In this document: piece by piece, positions 6,307 through 15,951 of the stretch
Position numbering within the stretch: the stretch's first letter is position 1
Layout: the number at the start of each line of letters is the position of its first letter
Notes under the pieces: generated by a model
Told to the model about the DNA's origin: nothing
Seen by the model: the letters and a program-made list of their open reading frames with translations, nothing else
Databases searched by the model: none
Made by a program: the position numbers and the translations under genes
IMG/VR virus record: IMGVR_UViG_3300020180_000014
Location: 27,396 to 91,395 of that record
Strand: one strand, 5' to 3'
Origin: a virus
DNA length: 64,000 nucleotides

Positions 6307-8253
6307 ATGGTCAACGTCAACAACCGCGAGAACCTGGGTCCGGCCGAGCGCATCATCGCGTCGGTCCTCACGTACACCGATCACCTCTATCACGGTCGCC
6401 CCGGCGTTGTGGTCGAGGACAAGCGTACCAACATCGGTGTCCGTTGGGAGCCGGTGACGCCGAAGACGGAAGAGATCAACGGCGCCAAGCGCGAGGTCAT
6501 CTACAAGCTGTCGAAGAGCGGCAAGAAGACGCTCAAGACGAAGATCGGCGTGGTCACGCAAGCTGTTGGTACGCATGGCGTGATCAAGCATGTGCGCACG
6601 GACGTGAGCCCAAACCATCCGATCGTCGGTGAGTACCGTGACGCGGGCATCTTCCCCGAAGTCGCAGCGTGGATGTATCGCCAGATCGTCGAGGTCTACA
6701 AGCTCGACAACGAGTTCGCCGCGAAGTGGGCATCGTTCGCGTACGCGCAGGATCACCGTGACCTCAAGGTCGTGCTCGCTGCGTTCATGCTCGTGCAGGC
6801 GCGCCGTGGTGACGCCGTGCTCGACGGCGGTAAGGTCGCGTTCCACGACGATGACTTCCGTGACGTCGGCGAGGCCATGATGCTGATCCGTCGCAAGGAC
6901 GGTAAGGATCTGAACCCGAAGCTGCTGCTCCGCATCCGCGAGGTGCTGATGCTGCCCGAGATTGCAGCGATCAACCTGGAGCTGGGCTTCGGCAAGTCGA
7001 CGCGTCATCCGTTCCTCGGTCGTTGGCCGGAGGTCACGGAGAAGTGGCTGCGCTATCGCGAGGAGAATCGTCCGCTGCTCATCGGTCTCGTCAAGGCCGG
7101 TTTCCGCAAGACGGTCATCCAGCTCGCGCGCCGCGTGCACTACAAGCCGAACACGCAGTGGTTCTTTGAGGAGCTGCGCTGGAAGCAGGTGCAGTCGGAT
7201 ACGGGTCACCGCACGATGGTCGACATCAACATCGTGCAGGCCGAGTCGTGGAACGAGCTGACCGAGGCACAGGTCTGCGAGAAGATCGTCGCCGAGAAGC
7301 CGGACTGGAAGCGCATCACGGGCATGCTGCCGAAGGGCCTCATGACGCGTGCTGTGGTCGCAGCGGCCATCGAGGCGAAGGCGCTCTCGGACCGTGACCT
7401 CGTCATCGCGACGCCGACGCTGGAAGAGCTGGGGCTGCTCGACGTACCGACGATCAAGGCACGTTGGGAGAAGGCGCTCAAGCACGCCGAAGATTCCCGC
7501 GCGGTCAACATCGCGAAGAACGTCCAGTCCAAGGAGGTGAAGGAGAAGCTCGTCGAGGCATCGGACAACGCCATCAAGAAGGCCGTCGAGGAGGTCTCGA
7601 AGAACATCCGCGTCTACTTCTTCGTCGACATCTCGGGCTCGATGAAGTCGTCGATCGAGGCTGCGAAGTTGCACGTCGCGAAGTTTCTCCAGGGCTTTCC
7701 ACCGGACCGCACGCACATCGCCGTGTTCAACACGGTGGGCCGCGAAATCAAGCTCAAGCACGCATCGGCGGTGGGCGTCGCCAACGCGTTCCAGGGTATT
7801 GCTGCGAGCGGTGGCACCGACTATGGCGCGGGCGTGCGCGAGCTGATGCAGTACAAGCCTCTGCCGGAAGAGGATGTGCTGTTCATCTTCGTCGGTGACG
7901 AGGAGGCACACGCGTTCGATCAGCAGGTTGTCGCATCGAGGCTCAACCCGATGGCGTTCGGCTTCGTGAAGACGATCCCGGACAACGGTGCAGCGGCGTA
8001 TCGCCATGGTCTGCACAACGGCGAGAACAACATCGCGGTTCGCGAAACGGCGAACCGTCTGAAGATTCCGTGCTTCATGATCGACGAGAAGACGTTCGAT
8101 GACGCGTACGCGATCCCGCGCACGATCAGGAACCTGATCGCGGCAACGCCCGTCAACATGGCGCGTGTGGCGGCAGTCGCTGCGGCACCGCGTCTGACGT
8201 TTGTCGATCAGATCCTCAAGACGGACCTGCTGAAGAAGCCTGTCTGGGCGTGA
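6307..8253 (+). CDS. vWA-domain protein with large helical N-terminal region (TROVE/Ro60-like architecture)
   Basis: C-terminal MIDAS FVDISGSM...SGGTDY...FVGDEE; ~430-aa basic helical N-terminus; GAGGAG RBS. The TROVE assignment is inferred from architecture only. Confidence 0.7.
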   Translation: MVNVNNRENLGPAERIIASVLTYTDHLYHGRPGVVVEDKRTNIGVRWEPVTPKTEEINGAKREVIYKLSKSGKKTLKTKIGVVTQAVGTHGVIKHVRTDVSPNHPIVGEYRDAGIFPEVAAWMYRQIVEVYKLDNEFAAKWASFAYAQDHRDLKVVLAAFMLVQARRGDAVLDGGKVAFHDDDFRDVGEAMMLIRRKDGKDLNPKLLLRIREVLMLPEIAAINLELGFGKSTRHPFLGRWPEVTEKWLRYREENRPLLIGLVKAGFRKTVIQLARRVHYKPNTQWFFEELRWKQVQSDTGHRTMVDINIVQAESWNELTEAQVCEKIVAEKPDWKRITGMLPKGLMTRAVVAAAIEAKALSDRDLVIATPTLEELGLLDVPTIKARWEKALKHAEDSRAVNIAKNVQSKEVKEKLVEASDNAIKKAVEEVSKNIRVYFFVDISGSMKSSIEAAKLHVAKFLQGFPPDRTHIAVFNTVGREIKLKHASAVGVANAFQGIAASGGTDYGAGVRELMQYKPLPEEDVLFIFVGDEEAHAFDQQVVASRLNPMAFGFVKTIPDNGAAAYRHGLHNGENNIAVRETANRLKIPCFMIDEKTFDDAYAIPRTIRNLIAATPVNMARVAAVAAAPRLTFVDQILKTDLLKKPVWA

Positions 8254-8261
8254 GGTGAACC

Positions 8262-9209
8262 GTGAGCTGGCGAGATCTACTGCACCAGGACGACGAGCGC
8301 ATCGTACTGCCGTGGATCGGTGGTCGCGAGGTGCGGTCGTTCTCGCGCACGTGGACGCTCGTCGGTGACGTACCGGCTGAGCACGGCTGGTACAGCTTCA
8401 CGCTGCTCAAAGGCCGAAGCGTAACACTGCACGCAGTTGCAGAACTGCACGCTGCGACGCTCGGTCAGGTGCACTTCGGTTACCTCGTCGGTGATCACTT
8501 CGCGACTGAGTCTTTCATCGAGCGCGTTGTAATCGATCCAAAGGACGTCGCCAAGCGTCTGCCGCGCGTGCACCTGATCAACGACGACGTCGATCGGTTT
8601 GCACGCGTCAGCATCGGTTCGGTGACGTCCGACGGTCCACTGTTCTTTCGTCAGGTCGAGATGCCGCTGGGTCCCGAGGACGACGTACTGCGTGCGTACG
8701 AGGACCAGGCTGCCGACGTCAACGCCATCAAGGGCGTCACGCCCGCACTCGATGCGGCGTTTCGGATGGCAGCGTGGCAGCGTACGGAGGCTGTTCGTCG
8801 TCGCGCGGAACTCGAACGGCTGCGCGTCGAGGAAGAGGCCAAGCGTGCAGCCGAGGAGCGTCGCCAGAACCTGGTCAAGCAGCTCGGTGACGGTGCCGGG
8901 CGTCGCGAGATGGCGAAGGTCGACTTCGAGGCTGCCGCACGTGCTGCACTTACGGTTGGCGGTGCTGAGCTGCTCGACTGGAACAAGGTACGCAACCGCA
9001 ACGAGTGGGTCGTGCGCTATCGCCTCGATCGTCGTCGGTTCGAGTGCGTCTGCGACGAGCGGCTGCACATCGTCGACGCCGGAATTTGCTTGGTCGATCA
9101 CCGTACCGGTATCAAGGGCGACACGCGCTTCACGTTGGAGTCGCTACCGGCGGTTGTTCGTCAAGCCATGCGCGAGGGCGTGCTGGTTGTTTTCAGGAAC
9201 GTCAACTAG
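8262..9209 (+). CDS. hypothetical protein with coiled-coil linker and putative E2-like C-terminal domain
   Basis: C-terminal LHIVDAGICL resembles the E2 HPNxxxxGxICL catalytic-Cys motif; directly follows the vWA gene. Confidence 0.55.
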   Translation: MSWRDLLHQDDERIVLPWIGGREVRSFSRTWTLVGDVPAEHGWYSFTLLKGRSVTLHAVAELHAATLGQVHFGYLVGDHFATESFIERVVIDPKDVAKRLPRVHLINDDVDRFARVSIGSVTSDGPLFFRQVEMPLGPEDDVLRAYEDQAADVNAIKGVTPALDAAFRMAAWQRTEAVRRRAELERLRVEEEAKRAAEERRQNLVKQLGDGAGRREMAKVDFEAAARAALTVGGAELLDWNKVRNRNEWVVRYRLDRRRFECVCDERLHIVDAGICLVDHRTGIKGDTRFTLESLPAVVRQAMREGVLVVFRNVN

Positions 9210-9216
9210 GAGTGTT

Positions 9217-9396
9217 ATGGCGAAGAAGATCGAAGGTACGTTTCACATCTGCACACGCGATCAGGCTGGGCGGTACTGCATCAAGGGCGAAGGGCGTGTC
9301 GACGAGCACAACAAAGTCGACGTCGAGATCATCGTGCACGATCACGAAGCGACGAAGCCGTACACGGGACGCAAGTTCACACTCATCATCGAATAG
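9217..9396 (+). CDS. small hypothetical protein
   Basis: AGGAG RBS then MAKKIEGTF... Confidence 0.6.
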   Translation: MAKKIEGTFHICTRDQAGRYCIKGEGRVDEHNKVDVEIIVHDHEATKPYTGRKFTLIIE

Positions 9397-9400
9397 CACT

Positions 9401-9754
9401 ATGGACGTCGAAAAACTGCAAGCTGACATGCGAGCCGCTGCTGAAGCAGGCCTCAAGCGCGATGCTGCAACGGTGCGCGCGAAGATCAACGAACGGAAGC
9501 CGCCGACGCCCCACCTGTTCGACGCGCTCGAATCGATCGGCGCAACGATGGATCCGATGTGGGAAGGCGAGTGGGAGGGCCCGGTCCTGTTCAACGATCC
9601 CAAAGGCGCCTCGCGGTTGATCCTCGTCACGCCTGCCGACCACGACGAGTTCCTGACGTGGGCGACAGCGCATCCGAACTTCACCGACGAAGAATTGCAG
9701 GAGCAAGGCCGTGCGTTCCTCGTGCGCATGTGCGCGAGGCCAGTCAACCCGTGA
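9401..9754 (+). CDS. hypothetical protein
   Basis: MDVEKLQADM...; tight operon spacing. Confidence 0.6.
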   Translation: MDVEKLQADMRAAAEAGLKRDAATVRAKINERKPPTPHLFDALESIGATMDPMWEGEWEGPVLFNDPKGASRLILVTPADHDEFLTWATAHPNFTDEELQEQGRAFLVRMCARPVNP

Positions 9755-10182
9755 GCGTTGAATGGTCGATGGAGAAGGTCGCCGAACAGTTCCGGCTCGA
9801 CGTTCGCGCACGCTTCGAGGCTGAGAACGCAGAGTGGCTCGCCGAAGAGCGTACAGGCATCGCGAAGATCAAAGCCGACTGCGATGCGGCAGGCGAGGCG
9901 TACCCGGACTGGCTTACGCCCGAGCGCAACAGCTTCTACTGGGAGATCTACAGCACCAGTGAGATCGCGATCGTCAACAACTCGGTCGACGTGCTGTTGC
10001 CGACGAACTTCGCGGTCTACCCCAACTTCATTGCGATGTTCGGCAAGACGTCAGTCGGTTGGTCGATCCCGTCGGTCGAGGCGAAAATCGTCGACGGTGA
10101 AGCGCGCCTGTTCGTGCACTTGATCCTGATCGACTACTGGGATGACGAACGCCACGCGAAGTGGCTGAAAGAGAACCCGTGA
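9751..10182 (+). CDS. hypothetical protein
   Basis: GTGA overlaps with neighbours. Confidence 0.6.
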   Translation: MSVEWSMEKVAEQFRLDVRARFEAENAEWLAEERTGIAKIKADCDAAGEAYPDWLTPERNSFYWEIYSTSEIAIVNNSVDVLLPTNFAVYPNFIAMFGKTSVGWSIPSVEAKIVDGEARLFVHLILIDYWDDERHAKWLKENP

Positions 10183-10919
10183 CAACACCACCCCGCTACT
10201 ACCTCGACACTGAGTTCATCGACGACGGCGTGACCGAGACGTTGCAGCTGATCTCGATCGGTATCATCTGCGACGACGGCCGCGAGCTGTACCTCGTCAA
10301 CAGTGAGTTCGACGAGAGCCGCTGCGACGACTGGCTCAAGGAGAACGTCCTCAAGCAGCTACCGCTGTGCACGTGTCCGGGCGGGGGCGCGTTGGATCAT
10401 CTCGGCCACAACGCGCCGGACTGCAAGTGGCGTACGCGCAATCAGATCCGGGATGCGATCATCGCGTTCGTTCCCGATCCCGGCAACGAAGTGAAGCCCG
10501 AGTTCTGGGCGTTCTTCGCGAGCTACGACTGGGTACTGTTCGCACAGCTGTTCGGCAAGATGATCAACTTGCCGAAGCACTTCCCGTGGCTCGTCAACGA
10601 CCTCAAGACGTGGGCCAAGCACCTGGGCTACACCGGCAAGTTCAAGGAGCTGTTGCCGAACACCGGTCATCATGATGCTCTCGCGGATGCGCGCTGGAAC
10701 CGCGACGTGCACAAGATCCTGATGGAGAAGCTCACGTCCACGCAGAAGCTGTTGGGGACGACACTCGTCGAAGCGATGGCGCTCTACGACGAGAAGTGCA
10801 CCGGTTGCAACCTGCAGACGTCCTGCGAATGTCCGAGCAGTGGACACGGCGCAGACTGCCGTCGCGATCGTGAAGCGGCCGTGCGCAAGGTCATAACCGA
10901 TCTGGGGCTGACGTCGTGA
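10179..10919 (+). CDS. DEDDh 3'-5' exoribonuclease (Rv2179c/RNase AS-like)
   Basis: YYLDTEFID...LISIGI...FASYDWV...HDALADARW motifs. Confidence 0.85.
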   Translation: MTTPPRYYLDTEFIDDGVTETLQLISIGIICDDGRELYLVNSEFDESRCDDWLKENVLKQLPLCTCPGGGALDHLGHNAPDCKWRTRNQIRDAIIAFVPDPGNEVKPEFWAFFASYDWVLFAQLFGKMINLPKHFPWLVNDLKTWAKHLGYTGKFKELLPNTGHHDALADARWNRDVHKILMEKLTSTQKLLGTTLVEAMALYDEKCTGCNLQTSCECPSSGHGADCRRDREAAVRKVITDLGLTS

Positions 10920-11194
10920 ATCCGGTCATCGAGAAGCTCATGCCAGATGCACGCGATACGTACTGCACGGGCGCATTGTTCAAGTACGTCCAGCACAAGT
11001 ACAACTGCGACTGGCTGCAGCCGATGTGGCACAAGGGTCCGTGCGACTGCGGACTCAAGGAGTTGATCCAGCAACTGCCTGAAGGTTTGCTGCGAATCCT
11101 CGTCGAAGCGAGCGAACACGTGCGCGCGACCGTCGAGGGTATCAAGCAGGACAAGGAACGCGACGAGCGAGAAGCCACGGAGAAAGCACCATGA
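10916..11194 (+). CDS. hypothetical protein
   Basis: QHKYNC...CDCGL small Cys/His motif; overlapping start/stop. Confidence 0.6.
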   Translation: MNPVIEKLMPDARDTYCTGALFKYVQHKYNCDWLQPMWHKGPCDCGLKELIQQLPEGLLRILVEASEHVRATVEGIKQDKERDEREATEKAP

Positions 11195-11595
11195 TGGAGA
11201 CCGGAGTCGTCGTCAGCATTCACCACGAGCCCATCTTCTGGCACGAACCCGGTGGACGTTCGAGCGGCGCGTTGCCGGATAGTCGCATGCTGTGGGACGT
11301 GTTGTGGCAGGCGAACCGCGACGGTTGGCTTTCGGGTTTCGCGCACACGCATCCAGGTGGCGGTCTGCCGGGTCCATCGCGCGAGGACATCTCGTCGTTC
11401 GTCGCGATCGAGAACGCGATCGGTCGGCCGCTCAACTGGTGGATCGTCAGCTCGGACATGACCGTGCTCGTGCGCAAGTCGACGATGGACAGCATACCGG
11501 GTCGCGAGATTTTCGGTACGACACGCATCGACGATCCTGTGTGGACGCCGGATCTGCGTCGTCGCTCGGGCATGGGCCGGACGCCGTATCGCTGA
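11191..11595 (+). CDS. JAB/MPN+ (JAMM) metallo-isopeptidase
   Basis: N-terminal E plus FAHTHPGGGLPGPSRED (HxH...SxxD) JAMM motif. Confidence 0.85.
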   Translation: MMETGVVVSIHHEPIFWHEPGGRSSGALPDSRMLWDVLWQANRDGWLSGFAHTHPGGGLPGPSREDISSFVAIENAIGRPLNWWIVSSDMTVLVRKSTMDSIPGREIFGTTRIDDPVWTPDLRRRSGMGRTPYR

Positions 11596-11612
11596 TCCCT
11601 GCTGCGACGTAG

Positions 11613-11644
11613 CTCTTGACTTGCCGAGCCTTCGTCGTTAGGGT
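11613..11644 (+). promoter_or_regulatory. sigma70-type promoter CTCTTGACT-17-TAGGGT
   Basis: 17-nt spacer; same -10 as the promoter of the RNA cluster. Confidence 0.65.
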
Positions 11645-11669
11645 CAGGGTTCATCGAGAGGACTGTGCC

Positions 11670-12113
11670 ATGGCTGATAACGAGCTGATGCGTGTGATCA
11701 AGGACGACGAGGCCCGCGTGAACGTCACGTGGAAGAACGCGAACGGCGACCTGCCGGATCCGGTGTTCCGTGACTCGTCCGAGGGTGACGTCCGTGGTTG
11801 GGTGACCGAGGCCGTCCGTAACGGTGGCGTGCCCGGTATCACTGCAGACCGCGATGCGAACTTCGCCGACTACATCGTGGATCGCTTCCCGCCGACGGAA
11901 GCGCGCCCGTACAACCTGATCCAGGTGCGCCCGAAGACGGCGTTCGGCGCTGACATCGAGGATGACGGTCCGAGCGACGCCGAGATCGAAGACCAAGAGA
12001 TCGAACGGCAGATCGAGGCTCAAGAAGAGGCTGCGATCGAGCAGCGTGCCGAGGATCAAGAGATCGAACGGCAGATCGAGGCTCAAGAAGAGGCCGCGAT
12101 CGAACAGGTCTAG
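11670..12113 (+). CDS. ubiquitin-like (beta-grasp) protein with acidic C-terminal extension
   Basis: ~93-aa domain ending LIQVRPKTAFG followed by a D/E-rich tail; adjacent to JAB; fold inferred from size, terminal strand-Gly and context. Confidence 0.6.
   Translation: MADNELMRVIKDDEARVNVTWKNANGDLPDPVFRDSSEGDVRGWVTEAVRNGGVPGITADRDANFADYIVDRFPPTEARPYNLIQVRPKTAFGADIEDDGPSDAEIEDQEIERQIEAQEEAAIEQRAEDQEIERQIEAQEEAAIEQV
11988..12110 (+). repeat. 63-nt tandem duplication encoding EDQEIERQIEAQEEAAIEQ x2
   Basis: 11988-12050 and 12051-12110 are near-identical. Confidence 0.9.
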
Positions 12114-12115
12114 TC

Positions 12116-12616
12116 GTGCTGCGCGTCGTCTCAGGTGCACTGATCCGCGACGGCTACGTGCTGATGGGTTTGCGTAAGAAGAGCGCATACCGACCTGACC
12201 TCTGGGAACTTCCCGGAGGAAAGATCGATCCGGGCGAGTCGCCGCACCAAGCGCTTGTCCGCGAGTGGAGTGAGGAGTGTGGTTGCCGCGTCGAGCCCGG
12301 CCAGTTTCTCTCGATGGCGATACTGCACGTCGACATCTCGTTCGTCATCGAGCTGTACACGATTCGGCTCGTCATGGGCACGCCGATGGCGCTCGACCAT
12401 CAGGAGCTGCGTTGGGTCAATCCGTTGTACGCCGTCCAGCGGCTGCCGTGCTCGCCTGCATTCTACCTGCACTACCCGCAGCTCGTGAAACACATCGAAG
12501 CCAGCTGGTCGATGTCGACGTGCGACGTCGTCGGAGACAGCGGTTGCACGAACGATGAGTGTTCGCGTTGCCACCCTCTCGCGAAACCTGTACGGGCTCT
12601 TCACGAGTCGTGGTGA
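12116..12616 (+). CDS. NUDIX hydrolase (MutT-like)
   Basis: WELPGGKIDPGESPHQALVREWSEECG Nudix box. Confidence 0.85.
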   Translation: MLRVVSGALIRDGYVLMGLRKKSAYRPDLWELPGGKIDPGESPHQALVREWSEECGCRVEPGQFLSMAILHVDISFVIELYTIRLVMGTPMALDHQELRWVNPLYAVQRLPCSPAFYLHYPQLVKHIEASWSMSTCDVVGDSGCTNDECSRCHPLAKPVRALHESW

Positions 12617-12954
12617 TGCCGACCGTCGGTTGGTCCGGTATTCGTCGTGCCGTCGTATGGGCGTTCGAAGCGAAGACGCTCTGGGGCAAGCTGCTGTATG
12701 CGGTCGACGAGCGCGGTTACGACGCTGTCGATGCAATTTCGGCGGCGCTGATCGTGAAGCATCCGGCAATCGCGCGAGAGATCCGACTCACCAGTACGCT
12801 GACCGCACGCACGACGAAGTCGATGGACTTCCACTCAACGTCGGTACATGGCATCGGCTCGACGGACAATTGGCCCTGGAAGGGTCAACTTGTTGAGGTG
12901 CACTTGAACGATGATCAACGACTCGTTGCCGTGTGGTACCAGGAGAAAGGATGA
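12616..12954 (+). CDS. hypothetical protein
   Basis: TGATG coupling. Confidence 0.5.
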   Translation: MPTVGWSGIRRAVVWAFEAKTLWGKLLYAVDERGYDAVDAISAALIVKHPAIAREIRLTSTLTARTTKSMDFHSTSVHGIGSTDNWPWKGQLVEVHLNDDQRLVAVWYQEKG

Positions 12955-13151
12955 CCGTGCAGCTCAGTCTCAGTGAAGTTCAGGTCGCCGTCGCTGACTA
13001 TCTTCGCAAGCGTGGCGTGGTCGTCGAGGACGCTGACCAGGTGCAGCTCGTCAACTTCAGCACGCATACCGGCTACGTCAACATTGCTCATGTCACGCCG
13101 ATGGTCGTGGTCCGTGATGCCAAACTGCCGGAGGGCGGGCCGTACCGATGA
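12951..13151 (+). CDS. small hypothetical protein
   Basis: AGGAG RBS, ATGA overlap. Confidence 0.55.
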   Translation: MTVQLSLSEVQVAVADYLRKRGVVVEDADQVQLVNFSTHTGYVNIAHVTPMVVVRDAKLPEGGPYR

Positions 13152-13456
13152 TCGAGACCGTGTTCCATACCGTGGTCTGGACCGAGACACCGACGAACAT
13201 CACGATGTCGCTCGGGCTCGAAGGTGCGCTCACGACCCGTGAAGCAGCCGAACGCGTGGCGACTGCGTACCGTGAGTTTCTGCAAGCCGACTCCGACGAC
13301 GGGCTCGTACAGGCGTACTTCGCGCGTGTGGGCATCCTGGAGATTTCGCGCGCACACCCACAGCTCAAGCACCCCGAACCGCGCGTGGACGTCGACGCGA
13401 TCGTCGCCGAGATCGAAGCGCGAACAGCACGCAAACGCGAAAAGAGGCTCTCGTGA
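13148..13456 (+). CDS. hypothetical protein
   Basis: ATGA overlap. Confidence 0.55.
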   Translation: MIETVFHTVVWTETPTNITMSLGLEGALTTREAAERVATAYREFLQADSDDGLVQAYFARVGILEISRAHPQLKHPEPRVDVDAIVAEIEARTARKREKRLS

Positions 13457-13950
13457 GACCGGACTGGGATACGTACTTCATGATCATCGCCGACGCGGTG
13501 TCGATGCGTGCGAGCTGCGACCGTGCGCGCGTTGGTGCGGTGATCGTCGTCGATAAGCGCATCATGTCGACCGGCTACAACGGCGCACCGAGCGGCGTGT
13601 CGTCGTGCGACGAGGTCGGCCATGACCTGGTCGACATCAACGGTCGTCAGAGCTGTGTGCGTGTCATCCACTCTGAGAAGAACGCCATCATCACGGCGGC
13701 GCGGCACGGGGTTCGTCTGGCAGGTGCGACGCTCTACACGACCGCGAGCACGTGCCGCGACTGCTACATGGCGGCGCTGCAGACCGGCATCGTTCGGATC
13801 GTCTACGGCTCCGAGTACATCGGCGGCAAGTCGTTCGATTTCGTTTCGGCGGCGCAAGCGAACGGCATAGAGCTGCGGCACTTACCGATCGCGGATGCGA
13901 TCAAGAACTGGACGCCGCCGCCACACGCGGTCTCTGTCAAGGCGCCATGA
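13453..13950 (+). CDS. dCMP deaminase (ComEB/DCTD family)
   Basis: RPDWDTYFM...STGYNGAPSG...HSEKNAI...CRDC zinc deaminase motifs. Confidence 0.9.
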   Translation: MRPDWDTYFMIIADAVSMRASCDRARVGAVIVVDKRIMSTGYNGAPSGVSSCDEVGHDLVDINGRQSCVRVIHSEKNAIITAARHGVRLAGATLYTTASTCRDCYMAALQTGIVRIVYGSEYIGGKSFDFVSAAQANGIELRHLPIADAIKNWTPPPHAVSVKAP

Positions 13951-14180
13951 AGTTCGGGGCGTACCACTGCGAGCGTGGTTGGGTCGTAGACACGGGCGTG
14001 GGCGGTACGTACGCATGGGACGTGGAGCAGGCTCAGTGGCATGACAGTGTTGAAGCGGGGATCGATGAATTGGTTGCGACTGACATCGTCGATGCAGTGG
14101 ATGCGTCAAGGTTCCCGGATGAACCAGCGACGGCAAAGTCTCTCGAACAGGGCGGCTGGCGATTCTTGCGATTGCTCTAG
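13947..14180 (+). CDS. small hypothetical protein
   Basis: ATGA overlap. Confidence 0.5.
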   Translation: MKFGAYHCERGWVVDTGVGGTYAWDVEQAQWHDSVEAGIDELVATDIVDAVDASRFPDEPATAKSLEQGGWRFLRLL

Positions 14181-14192
14181 GGGAAAACAACC

Positions 14193-14789
14193 ATGAAGAC
14201 CGTAACCATCGTTGGTGTCGGCGCGCTCGGCTCGCACGTCACGCAGTTTCTCCGCAACGAGGCGAACCTGCGCGTGATCGACTTCGATCGCGTCGAGGCT
14301 AAGAACATCCTGTCGCAGTTTCATGGCAAACCGGGCGGCGGCAAGCTCAAGGTCGAGGCACTCAAGGGTGCGATGCAGTTCCTGTGGGGAACGAAGCTCG
14401 ACGTGCGCAGTGCGAAGCTGGAGTCGAACAACGTGATCACGATGCTGGCGGGCAGCGACCTGATCATCGATTGTCTCGACAACGGTGCTGGCCGTCGTGT
14501 GCTTCAGGCGTACGCACGCGGTGACGTTGCACATGCACCGGGGCATCGCGAGCAGACGCCGTTGCTCCACGGCGCACTTGCTGCTGACGGTGCGTTCGGC
14601 CGTGTGATCTGGGATGAGAACTTCGTAATCGACGAGAACGACGGCGGTGCCGCGACATGCGAGGACGGCGAGCACCTGCCGTTCATCGTGATGGTGTCGA
14701 GCTTGATCGCACAGTCCGCGAAGGTCTACCTGAAGACGGGCAAGAAGCTCGGCTGGTCGATCGCACCTACGAACATCGTCGGGGTGTAG
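14193..14789 (+). CDS. ThiF/MoeB/E1-like adenylyltransferase
   Basis: IVGVGALGS, DFDRVEAKN..Q, KVEAL, IDCLDN...R, candidate thioester Cys in ATCEDGEH. Confidence 0.9.
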   Translation: MKTVTIVGVGALGSHVTQFLRNEANLRVIDFDRVEAKNILSQFHGKPGGGKLKVEALKGAMQFLWGTKLDVRSAKLESNNVITMLAGSDLIIDCLDNGAGRRVLQAYARGDVAHAPGHREQTPLLHGALAADGAFGRVIWDENFVIDENDGGAATCEDGEHLPFIVMVSSLIAQSAKVYLKTGKKLGWSIAPTNIVGV

Positions 14790-15396: not shown

Positions 15397-15428
15397 CTCT
15401 TGACAAGGTCAGAACCCTTCGCTAGGGT
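15397..15428 (+). promoter_or_regulatory. sigma70-type promoter CTCTTGACA-17-TAGGGT driving the ncRNA cluster
   Basis: perfect -35 at 15400-15405, 17-nt spacer; predicted start ~15435, at the 5' end of RNA1. Confidence 0.75.
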
Positions 15429-15436
15429 GCTTTTCA

Positions 15437-15530
15437 GCTGGTCACCACCAGCGTCGAGCTTACAAGCGCCCGCATGGGCATCATTCCTACCATCTGGAAA
15501 GAAACCAGCTCGACGCACTCGGTGACCGGT
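15437..15530 (+). ncRNA. structured RNA1 (Y-RNA-like long terminal stem with ACCA/ACUC internal loop)
   Basis: 15437-46 pairs with 15521-30 and 15451-60 with 15507-16, separated by 4x4 loop ACCA/ACTC. Confidence 0.65.
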
Positions 15531-15536
15531 CATCAC

Positions 15537-15664
15537 GAAGGATAAGGAGACTGGGTCTCCGCTTCCCTTACCCGGAAAGTTACCCTCACAGTAACAACTC
15601 GCTGCTTCGGCAGCACCCGCGACTGTGCACACGCTGGTTGGTTCGATTCCAACATCCTTCACGA
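15537..15664 (+). ncRNA. tRNA-like RNA2 with 6-bp D stem and very large variable arm
   Basis: acceptor GAAGGAT/ATCCTTC, D GGAGAC-TGG-GTCTCC, loop CTTACCC, T arm GTTGG-TTCGATT-CCAAC; ~58-nt extra arm with ACTC/ACCC loop and UUCG cap. Confidence 0.7.
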
Positions 15665-15697
15665 CGCTCTGTTTGCGACACTGACAACTGAAGACTC

Positions 15698-15830
15698 GGG
15701 GATTTACCGCCGGTCGGTTCCGGCACTTGAATACGGATCAAGCTATCCAACAGCGGCACTCGGCGCCTTCAAAACACGCCACCAGTCGATTGTTTACAAG
15801 CCCGAGGTTCGACTCCTCAAATCCCCACCG
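15698..15830 (+). ncRNA. tRNA-like RNA3 (8/4 acceptor/T geometry) with very large variable arm
   Basis: acceptor GGGGATTT/AAATCCCC, D GCCGG/CCGGC, stem CTTGA-ATACGGA-TCAAG, T arm GAGG-TTCGACT-CCTC; extra arm with ACTC/ACCA loop. Confidence 0.7.
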
Positions 15831-15951
15831 AGACCGTCACCGCATACGCGCTCACACGCAAGCTCAATTGGTAGAGCAACGGCCTTATAAGCCGTAGGAT
15901 TCGGTTCAAATCCGAAGCTACACAACACAGCGCGTATCACTCGACGGTTTC
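15830..15951 (+). ncRNA. RNA4: tRNA core (D, anticodon loop CUUAUAA, T arms) closed by a Y-like stem instead of an acceptor stem
   Basis: GCTC-AATTGGTA-GAGC, ACGGC-CTTATAA-GCCGT, TTCGG-TTCAAAT-CCGAA, enclosed by ATACGCGCT/AGCGCGTAT and GAGACCGTC/GACGGTTTC with ACCG/ACTC loop. Confidence 0.7.

What the first reader, a model, noticed from the sequence alone, without database searches (positions are those of the whole stretch)
15537..15830. Two tRNA-like RNAs with ~60-nt variable arms and non-standard D arms (7/5 and 8/4 geometry)
Seen: both have clean acceptor and T arms (TTCGATT, TTCGACT), 5-6 bp D stems with short loops reminiscent of tRNA-Sec, and 7-nt anticodon-like loops (CUUACCC; AUACGGA). 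Their extra arms are far longer than in Ser/Leu/Sec tRNAs, and neither encodes CCA (ends are ACGA and ACCG). Inference: they could be processed by RNase P and CCA-adding enzyme but act as decoys for anticodon nucleases or as adaptors rather than decoders.
Basis: partly seen in the sequence, partly recalled or inferred. Interest (0 to 1): 0.7.

Follow-up and report, generated by a model that had tools for sequence, protein, structure and literature searches.

The report
tRNA-shaped Y-like RNAs of huge phages
The two odd "tRNAs" are real, conserved small RNA genes of a large and apparently undescribed huge-phage family: a tRNA-shaped body carrying a conserved extra arm, encoded with a divergent relative of the RNA-binding ring protein Ro60, so they are more likely that protein's partner RNAs (a new form of Y RNA) than working tRNAs.

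Summary
Observation confirmed. Window 15537-15664 and 15698-15830 each fold into acceptor stem, compact D hairpin, anticodon arm and canonical T arm, with 58-60 nt where the variable loop should be. ARAGORN and Rfam's tRNA model miss both.

They are not decayed tRNAs. A covariance model finds about 130 relatives in more than 60 huge-phage contigs, and 89.7% of pair cells are paired against 53% in shuffles.

The extra arm is a conserved module: A/C linker, stem, NCUC loop, 6-bp G-C-closed hairpin, A-rich loop, stem, YACA(A/C)GC. The same module forms the 5'/3' end-stem of the neighbouring RNAs (15437-15530, 15834-15951) and of exact circular permutations in relatives. Rfam's YrlA model hits those permuted relatives weakly.

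All travel with a conserved cassette led by gene 6307-8253. Its helical part matches only Ro60 structures (Z 9.0, 8.8, 7.2) and it ends in a vWA domain.

U33 is kept in 51% of members against 94% of neighbouring canonical tRNAs. Their anticodons duplicate ordinary tRNAs nearby.

Best reading: tRNA-topology Y-RNA-like partners of a Ro60-like protein, acting as mimics or adaptors rather than decoders. RNA-protein binding and function are inferred, not shown.

Earlier notes of this scan describe the same family in at least nine other genomes. I found no published description.

The parts
15537..15664 (+). R2: tRNA-shaped RNA, closed-module type. Acceptor 15537-43/15654-60; D hairpin 15546-60; anticodon arm 15562-78 (loop CUUACCC); T arm 15637-53; tail ACGA.
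   Evidence: Sequence; fold; model R1 48.9 bits, E 3e-9. The L002 orthologue has compensatory changes in the acceptor and D stems. ARAGORN calls it tRNA-Val(tac) only after the variable region is trimmed in silico.
15587..15636 (+). Extra-arm module of R2: outer stem CACAGU/ACUGUG, 5' loop AACAACUC, distal hairpin GCUGC-UUCG-GCAGC, 3' loop ACCCGCG, linker CACACGCUG.
   Evidence: Fold. Family-wide module statistics: 5' loop ending CUC, G-C first pair in 74 of 88, 6-bp distal stem in 53 of 88, tetraloop in 62 of 88, YACA(A/C)G linker.
15698..15830 (+). R3: tRNA-shaped RNA, closed-module type. Acceptor 15698-705/15819-26; D hairpin 15709-24; anticodon arm 15726-42 (loop AUACGGA); T arm 15804-18; tail ACCG.
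   Evidence: Sequence; fold; model R1 81.6 bits, E 2.5e-17; orthologues in L002 and L003.
15749..15803 (+). Extra-arm module of R3: outer stem AACAGCGGC/GUCGAUUGUU, 5' loop ACUC, distal stem GGCG/CGCC with an 11-nt loop, 3' loop ACCA, linker UACAAGCCC.
   Evidence: Fold; outer stem covaries (helix 5, 8 pairs, all with double changes); invariant CUCG and ACA(A/C)G columns.
15437..15530 (+). R1: neighbouring RNA with the same module in open form. The 5'/3' ends form terminal stem GCUGGUCACC/GGUGACC, with loops ACCA/ACUC, an inner stem, then UACAAGC and two small hairpins.
   Evidence: Fold z -6.9; TACAAGC follows the inner stem directly; an open-type descriptor finds 62 plus-strand hits in relatives against 5 on the minus strand and 7 in shuffles.
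15834..15951 (+). R4: tRNA core (D, anticodon loop CUUAUAA, T arms) whose acceptor stem is replaced by the open module (CCGUC-ACCGC-AUACGCGCU ... AGCGCGUAU-CACUC-GACGG).
   Evidence: Rfam tRNA model positions 9-63 only, 49.4 bits; fold z -4.7; similar elements in relatives.
15400..15428 (+). Promoter-like TTGACA, 17 nt, TAGGGT just upstream of the four-RNA array.
   Evidence: Read from the sequence. It is below the threshold of the consensus scan, which reported none. Weak evidence.
6307..8253 (+). Gene for a divergent Ro60-like protein: beta insert about residues 33-111, helical domain 117-431, vWA 434-612 with invariant MIDAS D441-x-S443-x-S445.
   Evidence: Structure searches give Ro60 as the top three of 48,161 chains (Z 9.0, 8.8, 7.2). 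Full-length Foldseek top hits are Ro60/TROVE at E 3e-6. A family profile hits Ro60 chains best (E 7.7e-7). There is no Pfam TROVE hit.
8262..14789 (+). Rest of the conserved cassette: unknown 315-aa protein (8262-9209), JAB peptidase (11191-11595), Ubl-like (11616-12113), ThiF/E1-like (14193-14789). Lineage-specific inserts: RNase AS-like exoribonuclease 10161-10919, NUDIX 12116-12616, dCMP deaminase 13453-13950.
   Evidence: Pfam, PHROGs, NCBIfam and PADLOC scans. Same gene order in 54-57 of 62 related loci.

Best explanation
R2 and R3 are two members of a large huge-phage family of tRNA-derived non-coding RNAs. I read them as a tRNA-topology form of Y RNA.

Proposed mechanism:
- The four RNAs at 15437-15951 are transcribed as one array and cut out by the tRNA-processing machinery.
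- Each closed-type RNA folds into an L-shaped tRNA body: acceptor, D hairpin with a GG loop, anticodon arm, canonical T arm.
- A roughly 50-nt rod projects from the variable-region position. This rod is a conserved module: stem, NCUC/A-rich internal loop, then a 6-bp G-C-closed hairpin, flanked by an A/C-rich linker and YACA(A/C)GC.
- The module is the docking handle for the co-conserved Ro60-like ring protein (gene 6307-8253), in the way the end-stem of a Y RNA docks Ro60.
- The tRNA body, with orthologue-specific anticodon loops that often lack U33, is the variable 'business end'. It mimics particular tRNAs so that the particle engages tRNA-binding factors (processing, modifying or cleaving enzymes) rather than decoding on the ribosome.

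Shown: the RNAs, their structure, the module, its permutations, the gene linkage, and the Ro60-like fold of the protein.
Inferred: end processing, RNA-protein binding, non-decoding, and what the particle does.
For: 1. A real, selected structure. The model finds about 130 members. 89.7% of cells are paired against 53% in shuffles, and 27 of 28 pairs have compensatory changes.

2. The extra arm is a conserved unit. CUCG and ACA(A/C)G columns are invariant. The module parses automatically in 88 of 110 members.

3. The same unit with the same flanking linkers occurs with open ends. This is so in R1 and R4 of the window and in 62 plus-strand elements interleaved with the closed type in relatives. 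These include exact circular permutations in the order T arm, closed acceptor hairpin, D arm, anticodon arm, which is the YrlA gene order described in PMC4201824. Rfam's YrlA model hits exactly those elements and no others: 30.1 bits, E 2.7e-4, full model length; and 26.5 bits, E 0.005.

4. Linkage to the protein gene. The RNAs lie on the same strand, 4-7 kb downstream of or directly upstream of the Ro60-like gene in nearly all 62 viral loci and in 17 of 26 genome-bin loci. A protein-independent DNA-pattern scan found 15 further contigs with members. Five of these have a strong Ro-like match and most of the rest are small fragments. None of 19 model-negative control contigs has a strong match.

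5. The protein is Ro60-like. The non-vWA part matches only Ro60 chains at the top of 48,161 (Z 9.0/257 aa, 8.8/255 aa, 7.2/287 aa; next Z 6.5). The full-length Foldseek top hits are Ro60. The family profile's best PDB hits are Ro60 (E 7.7e-7), and the phiLo Ro60 hit extends into the helical part. The MIDAS motif is invariant.

6. Against decoding. U33 is kept in 40 of 78 members against 881 of 933 canonical tRNAs of the same loci. G33 is conserved in the CGGUAAA group across 6 phages with different stems. The same anticodon is also present as an ordinary tRNA in the same locus in 36 of 58 cases, with 29.7 expected. R4-type paralogues keep a perfect anticodon loop but have no acceptor end.

7. 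tRNA-like end processing is plausible. The tails have the same C74-[C/U]-[A/G] grammar as canonical tRNAs. 71 of 110 bodies are called tRNA once the arm is trimmed in silico.

8. Precedent. Phage Ro60 binds phage-encoded Y-like RNAs next to its gene (PMC12135203). Y RNAs with tRNA-like domains lie next to Ro60 in more than 250 bacteria and phages (PMC4201824).
Against: - No experiment: neither expression, nor processing, nor binding is shown.
- The protein has no Pfam TROVE match, even in its distant relatives. The structural Z of about 9 with rmsd 6-7 A is moderate for a helical repeat.
- The YrlA/Ro60 motif GNCGAAN0-1G is not conserved in the module. R3 has GUCGAUUG; its L003 orthologue has GUCGAAUG; most members have nothing similar.
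- The handle could bind another cassette protein, for example the unknown 8262-9209 product, rather than the Ro60-like one.
- R2 and R3 themselves keep U33 and free acceptor ends, and about a third of members encode CCA. Orthologue groups keep anticodon and discriminator together (UCC with U73 in 8 of 8; GUA with A73 in 8 of 9; GUU with G73 in 6 of 7). That is what aminoacylated tRNAs would do, so charging is not excluded.
- In this window the RNAs lie 7.2 kb from the Ro60-like gene, not adjacent to it.
Confidence: 0.6

Rival explanations
1. They are working, aminoacylated decoder tRNAs. They derive from class II tRNAs, and the giant extra arm is an added feature, for example an identity element for a synthetase or a shield or handle that protects phage tRNAs from host tRNA-targeting defences.
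For: - Free 7-8 bp acceptor ends with tRNA-like discriminator and C-[C/U]-[A/G] tails; CCA is encoded in 31 of 110.
- Canonical T loop and a GG-containing D loop.
- 7-nt anticodon loops in 78 of 110, with R37 in 72 of 78.
- Anticodon loops are conserved among orthologues while the stems covary, and the discriminator co-varies with the anticodon group.
- Some members have canonical class II D arms.
- 71 of 110 are called tRNA after the arm is trimmed.
- R2 and R3 both have U33.
Against: - U33 is kept in 51% of members against 94% in neighbouring canonical tRNAs, and non-U33 is conserved in whole orthologue groups.
- 32 of 110 anticodon loops are not 7 nt long.
- Their anticodons duplicate ordinary tRNAs in the same loci.
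- Their bodies do not resemble cognate tRNAs: 4 of 78 best matches share the anticodon.
- The same arm is carried by paralogues that cannot be charged (R4 type, permuted type).
- This phage record keeps the four module RNAs but has no ordinary tRNA at all.
Confidence: 0.2
2. They are bait or decoy RNAs for host anticodon nucleases or other tRNA-directed defence enzymes. They would work on their own or as the sensing part of the Ro60-like/Ubl cassette.
For: - The family displays a panel of specific anticodon loops (GUA, UCC, GUU, UUG, CAU, ACG, UAC and others) that are conserved across phages, often with an altered position 33 next to the usual cleavage region.
- The anticodons are redundant with ordinary tRNAs.
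- There are multiple copies per phage.
- The linked E1/JAB/Ubl cassette is of a type used in phage-host conflict; PADLOC E1-E2 models hit the ThiF gene.
Against: There is no direct evidence. No nuclease, inhibitor or target was identified. The anticodon set is broad rather than focused on known nuclease targets. This reading overlaps with the best explanation and differs only in naming the factor that is engaged.
Confidence: 0.12
3. They are ordinary tRNA genes interrupted by an insertion (an intron-like or mobile element) in the variable region that is removed to give normal tRNAs.
For: Trimming the variable region in silico makes ARAGORN of 110 members tRNA, including R2 as Val(tac). The insert is a discrete conserved unit.
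Against: - No known bacterial or phage mechanism splices the variable arm.
- There is no bulge-helix-bulge arrangement, and 50 nt is too short for a group I or II intron.
- The linkers left behind (15-25 nt) would still not give a class I tRNA.
- D arms are non-canonical and U33 is often lost.
- Bodies are unlike cognate tRNAs.
- The same unit forms the terminal stem of RNAs whose ends lie inside it, which an intron would not do.
- R3 is not called tRNA even after trimming.
Confidence: 0.05
4. They are decaying tRNA pseudogenes or chance folds.
For: Single-sequence fold z-scores are only -2.4 to -2.6. tRNA finders reject both elements.
Against: More than 130 relatives show compensatory changes in every helix and have invariant motifs outside the tRNA-like parts.
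Confidence: 0.02

Closest known systems
YrlA-type Y RNAs with Ro60/Rsr (Rfam RF02553; Chen et al. 2014, PMC4201824; phage example phiLo Yrl1/Yrl2 with phage Ro60, PMC12135203)
   Same: - Small RNAs that join a protein-docking stem to a tRNA-like domain with canonical T and D arms.
- Encoded on the same strand near a Ro60-type (helical ring plus vWA) gene, often in several copies, in phages as well as bacteria.
- Permuted paralogues in related phages have the YrlA order (stem, T arm, closed acceptor hairpin, D arm, stem) and give the only sub-threshold Rfam hits: RF02553 at 30.1 and 26.5 bits.
   Different: - In R2 and R3 the 5'/3' ends are in a normal acceptor stem, and the docking stem is capped by a hairpin sitting in the variable-arm position.
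- A full anticodon arm is retained.
- No RF02553 hit for R2 or R3, even at E<=10.
- The conserved motifs are NCUC and YACA(A/C)GC rather than GNCGAA.
- The protein is so divergent that Pfam TROVE misses it, and it carries an N-terminal beta insert.
- The locus also includes a conserved JAB/Ubl/E1 cassette.
Class II tRNAs, tRNA-Sec and allo-tRNAs (long variable arm; 8/5, 9/4, 8/4 or 9/3 geometry; from my knowledge of Mukai et al. 2017, not read here)
   Same: A tRNA cloverleaf with an extra arm between the anticodon and T arms. Compact 5-6 bp D stems with 3-6 nt loops. R3 can be drawn 8/4. Some family members keep canonical class II D arms.
   Different: - The extra region is 58-60 nt, against at most about 24 nt, and it has its own two-helix architecture and conserved sequence.
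- No UCA anticodon.
- U33 is frequently lost in the family.
- The anticodons are redundant with ordinary tRNAs.
- The elements are not detected by ARAGORN or RF00005.
Circularly permuted and split tRNA genes of algae and archaea (review PMC3978253, seen in the search list only)
   Same: The same RNA parts are encoded in both normal and rotated order.
   Different: In those cases the permuted precursor is processed to a normal tRNA. Here the break point lies in an added module and both forms appear to be end products.

Membership tests
Canonical decoder tRNA | Recognised as tRNA by ARAGORN, or by Rfam RF00005 at the gathering score | tested here: not met
   ARAGORN reports 0 genes in the window. 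There is no RF00005 match at R2 or R3 even at E<=10.
Canonical decoder tRNA | 7-bp acceptor stem stacked on a 5-bp T stem with a GTTCRANYC-type T loop | tested here: met
   R2 has 7/5 geometry with loop UUCGAUU. R3 has 8/4 (or 7/5 with one mismatch) with loop UUCGACU. Both helices covary in the family.
Canonical decoder tRNA | 7-nt anticodon loop with U33 and a purine at position 37 | tested here: inconclusive
   R3 (AUACGGA) has U33 and G37. R2 (CUUACCC) has U33 but C37. In the family, U33 is found in 40 of 78 members against 881 of 933 canonical tRNAs of the same loci, and R37 in 72 of 78.
Canonical decoder tRNA | Variable region of 4-5 nt (class I) or up to about 24 nt (class II) | tested here: not met
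   58 nt in R2 and 60 nt in R3 between the anticodon and T stems. Members are 115-153 nt long in total.
Canonical decoder tRNA | Aminoacylation and ribosomal decoding | not testable with these tools
   Needs acid-gel, periodate or translation assays.
tRNA-Sec / allo-tRNA | 13-bp (8/5 or 9/4) or 12-bp (8/4 or 9/3) acceptor-T domain together with a UCA or reassigned anticodon and a Ser-type variable arm | tested here: not met
   R3 can be drawn 8/4, but the anticodon-like triplets are UAC and ACG. The arm is a 50-nt two-helix module, not a simple hairpin.
YrlA Y RNA (RF02553) | Match to the RF02553 covariance model at the gathering score (69 bits) | tested here: not met
   No hit at R2 or R3 at E<=10. 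Permuted paralogues in relatives score 30.1 bits (E 2.7e-4) and 26.5 bits (E 0.005).
YrlA Y RNA (RF02553) | 5' and 3' ends pair to form the protein-binding stem | tested here: not met
   In R2 and R3 the ends form the acceptor stem and the module is capped by a hairpin. The feature is met by neighbours R1 and R4 and by 62 open-type relatives.
YrlA Y RNA (RF02553) | tRNA-like domain with conserved T and D arms | tested here: met
   The T loop UUCGAnU is invariant, the D loop contains GG, and both arms covary.
YrlA Y RNA (RF02553) | GNCGAAN0-1G motif on the strand leaving the terminal stem (PMC4201824) | tested here: not met
   R3 has GUCGAUUG (one mismatch) and R2 has GCGACUG. The L003 and L036 orthologues match (GUCGAAUG, GGCGAAUG), but most members have no such motif.
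YrlA Y RNA (RF02553) | Encoded next to a Ro60 gene | tested here: met
   Same strand, 7.2 kb downstream in the window. The synteny is conserved in nearly all 62 viral and 17 of 26 genome-bin loci, and the RNAs lie directly upstream of the gene in L012, L047, L049 and L063. The gene is Ro60-like by fold, not by Pfam.
YrlA Y RNA (RF02553) | Bound by Ro60/Rsr | not testable with these tools
   Needs co-immunoprecipitation or gel shift.
Ro60/TROVE protein (for gene 6307-8253) | Pfam TROVE (PF05731) match | tested here: not met
   No match in the protein, in 11 close relatives, in 13 distant relatives, or in six-frame search of the record.
Ro60/TROVE protein (for gene 6307-8253) | Helical-repeat ring followed by a vWA domain with a MIDAS motif | tested here: met
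   The N-terminal model (pLDDT 86) has Ro60 chains as the top 3 of 48,161 (Z 9.0, 8.8, 7.2). The vWA domain scores Z 14. DxSxS is invariant. The family profile's best PDB hits are Ro60. Whether the helices close into a ring is not established by the model.
Intron-containing tRNA | Intron at 37/38, a bulge-helix-bulge motif, or a group I/II intron core | tested here: not met
   The insert lies between the anticodon and T arms. It has a symmetric 4-8 nt internal loop rather than offset 3-nt bulges, is about 50 nt long, and gives no Rfam intron hit.

The most novel reading that the evidence does not exclude
Huge phages, probably of Myxococcota, carry a modular RNP toolkit. One conserved RNA 'handle' is grafted onto tRNA scaffolds at three different points: in the variable arm, in place of the acceptor stem, and as a circular permutation. 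This yields a panel of anticodon-specific tRNA mimics that load onto a cryptic Ro60-like ring. The ring works with a dedicated E1/JAB/Ubl cassette to capture, mark or neutralise host tRNA-directed enzymes such as anticodon nucleases. If so, this would be a new counter-defence principle and the first link between Ro60/Y RNA particles and ubiquitin-like conjugation.
Probability: 0.12. Interest if true: 0.93.

Novelty: new variant of a known kind. Interest (0 to 1): 0.74.

Why it matters
Y RNAs and Ro60 are conserved from bacteria to humans, yet the job of the tRNA-like domain in bacterial Y RNAs is still unknown.

This family is a natural experiment on that question. The same docking handle is attached to full tRNA shapes in normal order, in rotated order, and in acceptor-less form. 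There are up to about ten copies per phage, and the anticodon loops are specific to each orthologue group.

That makes several things directly testable:
- whether the tRNA part targets the particle to particular tRNA-binding enzymes
- what the handle binds
- why huge phages with large tRNA arrays keep such RNAs

It also matters for annotation. These 115-153-nt genes are invisible to ARAGORN and Rfam, and the partner protein is invisible to Pfam TROVE, so both are missed in huge-phage genomes.

The conserved neighbourhood with a JAB/Ubl/E1 cassette suggests a connection between RNA surveillance particles and ubiquitin-like conjugation. I found no description of such a link.

Tried and rejected
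- tRNA finders and Rfam on the window: nothing at R2 or R3.
- blastn against GenBank phages: only the tRNA core of R4 matches ordinary phage tRNAs, so no close cultured relative is available.
- The consensus promoter/terminator scan found no promoter, and only two minus-strand terminator-like hairpins that are simply R2's own stems.
- Pfam, PHROGs, NCBIfam and PADLOC on the 6307 protein gave only vWA.
- The first profile search of PDB sequences gave only vWA proteins.
- A second look with the full-length model (VIA-align on Foldseek's top chains) was swamped by the vWA domain.
- Foldseek with the N-terminal model alone gave no match at E<=0.001; Ro60 chains appeared only at ranks 23 and 34.
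- I looked for a sequence bridge to TROVE through distant relatives from three other phage contigs and from the 1.84-billion-protein search. None carries Pfam TROVE.
- 'Gap-filling decoder' rejected: the anticodons are no rarer among canonical tRNAs of the same loci than expected (36 observed, 29.7 expected).
- 'Recent insertion into cognate tRNAs' rejected: bodies do not resemble cognate tRNAs (4 of 78).
- tmRNA, group I intron and retron readings were considered from the sequence and dropped, because acceptor plus T arm, a full anticodon arm and the size do not fit, and neither Rfam nor ARAGORN supports them.
- The genome-contig scan with the broad alignment A6 failed for lack of a conserved stretch and was repeated with A1.
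- One literature search was rejected for a term that was too short.
- Literature searches found no description of tRNAs with 50-60-nt variable arms in phages, or of a Ro60-like gene with a Ubl cassette.
Full report
**1. What is there**

The window is the last 64 kb of a 91-kb IMG/VR virus record (62% G+C, about 68% complete). Four structured RNAs lie head to tail on the + strand between 15437 and 15951. The finding covers the middle two.

R2 (15537-15664) has these parts:
- a 7-bp acceptor stem
- a 6-bp D hairpin with a 3-nt loop
- an imperfect 5-bp anticodon stem with loop CUUACCC
- 58 nt before the T arm
- a perfect T arm (GUUGG-UUCGAUU-CCAAC)
- the tail ACGA

R3 (15698-15830) has these parts:
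- an 8-bp acceptor stem and a 4-bp T stem
- a 5-bp D hairpin with loop UCGGUU
- anticodon arm CUUGA-AUACGGA-UCAAG
- 60 nt before the T arm
- the tail ACCG

ARAGORN finds no tRNA anywhere in the window. Rfam gives no match at either element even at E<=10. In the whole 91-kb record, the only RF00005 match is the D-anticodon-T core of the fourth RNA.

**2. Are they real?**

Single-sequence folding is only mildly better than shuffles (z about -2.5), so I looked for relatives.

The upstream vWA protein (6307-8253) has 62 relatives in IMG/VR. Almost all lie on contigs of 100-620 kb. Many of these loci are packed with ordinary tRNAs, up to 46 in 22 kb.

I ran a simple descriptor over the loci: a T arm, a 7-bp acceptor stem 112-156 nt apart, and ACA[AC]G before the T stem. 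It found about 112 distinct elements, nearly all on the strand of the protein gene.

MAFFT plus RNAalifold on 43 of them gave a five-helix consensus in which 27 of 28 pairs have compensatory changes. The covariance model built from that alignment scores R3 at 81.6 bits and R2 at 48.9 bits, and finds about 130 members above 37 bits.

On 141 distinct rows, 89.7% of pair cells are standard pairs. Shuffles give 53.3% (0 of 500 reach the observed value), and slid partners give at most 51%. The window/L002 pair of R2 orthologues alone shows compensatory changes in the acceptor and D stems. The pseudogene and chance readings are therefore excluded.

**3. Anatomy of the extra arm**

Across the family the region between the anticodon and T arms reads as follows:
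- an optional small GNRA hairpin
- an A/C-rich linker ending in CC
- an outer stem
- a 4-5-nt loop ending in CUC
- a distal stem, usually 6 bp, whose first pair is G-C (74 of 88), capped mostly by a tetraloop (62 of 88; GCAA, GAAA, UUCG)
- a 4-5-nt loop that usually starts with A
- the other strand of the outer stem
- the linker YACA(A/C)GC

CUCG and ACA(A/C)G are invariant alignment columns.

The same unit with the same two linkers is present in the window's other two RNAs, but opened.
- In R1 (15437-15530) the 5' and 3' ends form the 'distal' stem, the loops are ACCA/ACUC, and UACAAGC follows the inner stem.
- In R4 (15834-15951) the opened unit replaces the acceptor stem of a tRNA core with loop CUUAUAA.

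A descriptor for this open form finds 62 plus-strand elements in the relatives, against 5 on the minus strand and 7 in shuffled sequence. These are interleaved with the closed form.

Some are exact circular permutations of the R2/R3 type: handle strand, YACAAGC, T arm, acceptor stem closed by a loop, D arm, anticodon arm, handle strand. Examples are L025 15842-15979 and L019 14666-14799. That is the gene order of YrlA Y RNAs (PMC4201824). Rfam's YrlA model hits exactly these elements below threshold: 30.1 bits, E 2.7e-4, over the whole model; and 26.5 bits, E 0.005. It hits nothing else.

**4. The linked genes**

Five genes keep the same order in 54-57 of 62 loci:
- the vWA protein
- an unknown 315-aa protein
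- a JAB peptidase
- a Ubl-like protein
- a ThiF/E1-like enzyme

The RNA array follows this cassette, or directly precedes the first gene (L012, L047, L049, L063). The RNase AS-like exoribonuclease, the NUDIX gene and the dCMP deaminase of the window are found only in the closest relatives.

The vWA protein has no Pfam TROVE match. The evidence that it is nonetheless Ro60-like is this:
- Its full-length model is matched best by Ro60/TROVE structures over 560-590 columns (E 3e-6).
- A better model of residues 1-436 (pLDDT 86) was compared with 48,161 representative chains. The top three are the three Ro60 representatives: phage phiLo (Z 9.0, 257 aligned), Deinococcus Rsr (Z 8.8, 255) and Xenopus (Z 7.2, 287). 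The next hit has Z 6.5 and a shorter alignment.
- A profile that includes distant family members hits Xenopus and human Ro60 best among all PDB sequences (E 7.7e-7 and 3.6e-6). It also hits phiLo Ro60 over a stretch that runs about 100 residues into the helical part.
- The MIDAS DxSxS motif is invariant.

The family is small: 206 representatives among 1.84 billion.

I read the protein as a very divergent Ro60 homologue with an inserted beta domain, at roughly 80% confidence. The Z scores are moderate for a helical repeat.

To test the linkage independently of the protein, I scanned IMG/VR with a DNA pattern from the RNA (CTCG..ACAAGC..GGTTCGANTCC). The scan plus the covariance model gave 15 further contigs with members. 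Five have a strong Ro-like match, and most of the others are fragments under 30% complete. None of 19 model-negative control contigs has a strong match.

**5. Decoder or mimic?**

For tRNA-like handling:
- The 3' tails follow N73-C-[C/U]-[A/G], with C74 at 95% and CCA at 28%. The 933 canonical tRNAs of the same loci do the same (C74 93%, CCA 39%).
- After the variable region is trimmed to 5 nt in silico, ARAGORN of 110 bodies tRNA. R2 becomes Val(tac); R3 is not called.
- Orthologue groups keep their anticodon loops while the stems covary. They also keep a matching discriminator: UCC with U73 in 8 of 8, GUA with A73 in 8 of 9, GUU with G73 in 6 of 7.

Against decoding:
- U33 is present in only 40 of 78 seven-nt loops, against 94% of canonical tRNAs. 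Non-U33 is itself conserved: CGGUAAA occurs in six phages with different stems.
- 32 of 110 loops are not 7 nt long.
- The same anticodon is present as an ordinary tRNA in the same locus in 36 of 58 cases, with 29.7 expected.
- The bodies do not resemble cognate tRNAs.
- The same handle sits on paralogues that have no chargeable end.
- This record keeps the four handle RNAs without a single ordinary tRNA.

I conclude that the anticodon arm is under selection, but probably as something to be recognised rather than to decode. Aminoacylation of some members is not excluded.

**6. Explanation and comparison with what is known**

The best-supported reading is that R2 and R3 are tRNA-topology members of a modular Y-RNA-like family. 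A conserved handle docks a Ro60-like protein. A tRNA-shaped body mimics particular tRNAs.

Precedents:
- Y RNAs with tRNA-like domains lie next to Ro60 in more than 250 bacteria and phages (PMC4201824).
- Phage phiLo Ro60 binds two phage Y-like RNAs encoded beside its gene, and with them recruits host PNPase (PMC12135203).
- TROVE proteins with a tRNA-like partner have been noted in some jumbo phages (PMC7824862).

Differences from YrlA:
- normal tRNA ends and a retained anticodon arm
- the handle in the variable-arm position
- different conserved motifs
- no RF02553 match
- a protein beyond the reach of Pfam TROVE
- the JAB/Ubl/E1 cassette

So R2 and R3 work like Y RNAs but are not members of RF02553.

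Binding, processing and function are all inferred.

**7. Novelty and earlier notes of this scan**

I found no paper describing such RNAs, and Rfam 15 has no family for them.

Earlier AI notes of this scan describe the same family in at least nine other genomes with the same reading. Notes on this genome pointed to the vWA gene and the shared loop. I treated these as leads and reproduced the key tests on my own data.

The family also occurs on contigs binned into Myxococcota MAGs and on a contig of the isolate Paraliomyxa miuraensis. That hints at the host range.

Noticed in passing
window 6307-14789: A conserved five-gene cassette (Ro60-like vWA protein, unknown 315-aa protein, JAB peptidase, Ubl-like protein, ThiF/E1-like) keeps the same order in 54-57 of 62 related loci. 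Only PADLOC's 'E1-E2' models hit the ThiF gene. I did not find this combination of a Ro60-like gene with a ubiquitin-like conjugation set described anywhere.
   Followed up: partly
window 10161-10919: A 3'-5' exoribonuclease (Pfam Rv2179c-like; NCBIfam RNase AS, 133 bits, below its cut-off of 200) is inserted in the cassette only in the window and its two closest relatives (L002, L003). It is notable because bacterial Ro60/Y RNA particles work with 3'-5' exoribonucleases.
   Followed up: partly
whole record G000 (91 kb), window 1-64000: There is no canonical tRNA gene at all, whereas related huge phages carry up to 46 tRNAs within 22 kb around the same cassette. The handle RNAs are retained regardless.
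   Followed up: yes
L003 21541-21839: The 75%-identical relative has R1 and R3 but no R2 between them (64-nt gap). Copy number in the array therefore changes quickly.
   Followed up: no
related loci L002-L063: 49 of 933 distinct ARAGORN-called canonical tRNAs in these phage loci have C33 instead of U33. This is an unusually high share for ordinary tRNAs.
   Followed up: no
L182-L207 (genome contigs): Relatives of the Ro60-like gene, with the RNAs beside it in 17 of 26 loci, lie on contigs binned almost only into Myxococcota MAGs (Kofleriaceae, Polyangia, Sandaracinaceae, Sorangium). One lies on a 799-kb contig of the isolate Paraliomyxa miuraensis SMH-27-4. This is a probable host clue, or mis-binned phage contigs.
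   Followed up: partly
L176 1229-2692, L177 1216-2916, L178 853-2514: Three other phage contigs that matched the RNA pattern encode shorter (487-566 aa), much more distant relatives of the Ro60-like protein, without the beta insert and without a Pfam TROVE match. The long-RNA covariance model hits one of these contigs weakly (L103, 41 bits) and the other two not at all, so they may have a different RNA partner.
   Followed up: no
L010 290-688: ARAGORN calls a tmRNA gene (tag ANYNGFAQAA) inside the tRNA array of a related 323-kb phage contig.
   Followed up: no
window 15400-15428: TTGACA, 17 nt, TAGGGT lies just upstream of the RNA array. It is a possible own promoter for the four RNAs, below the threshold of the consensus scan.
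   Followed up: no
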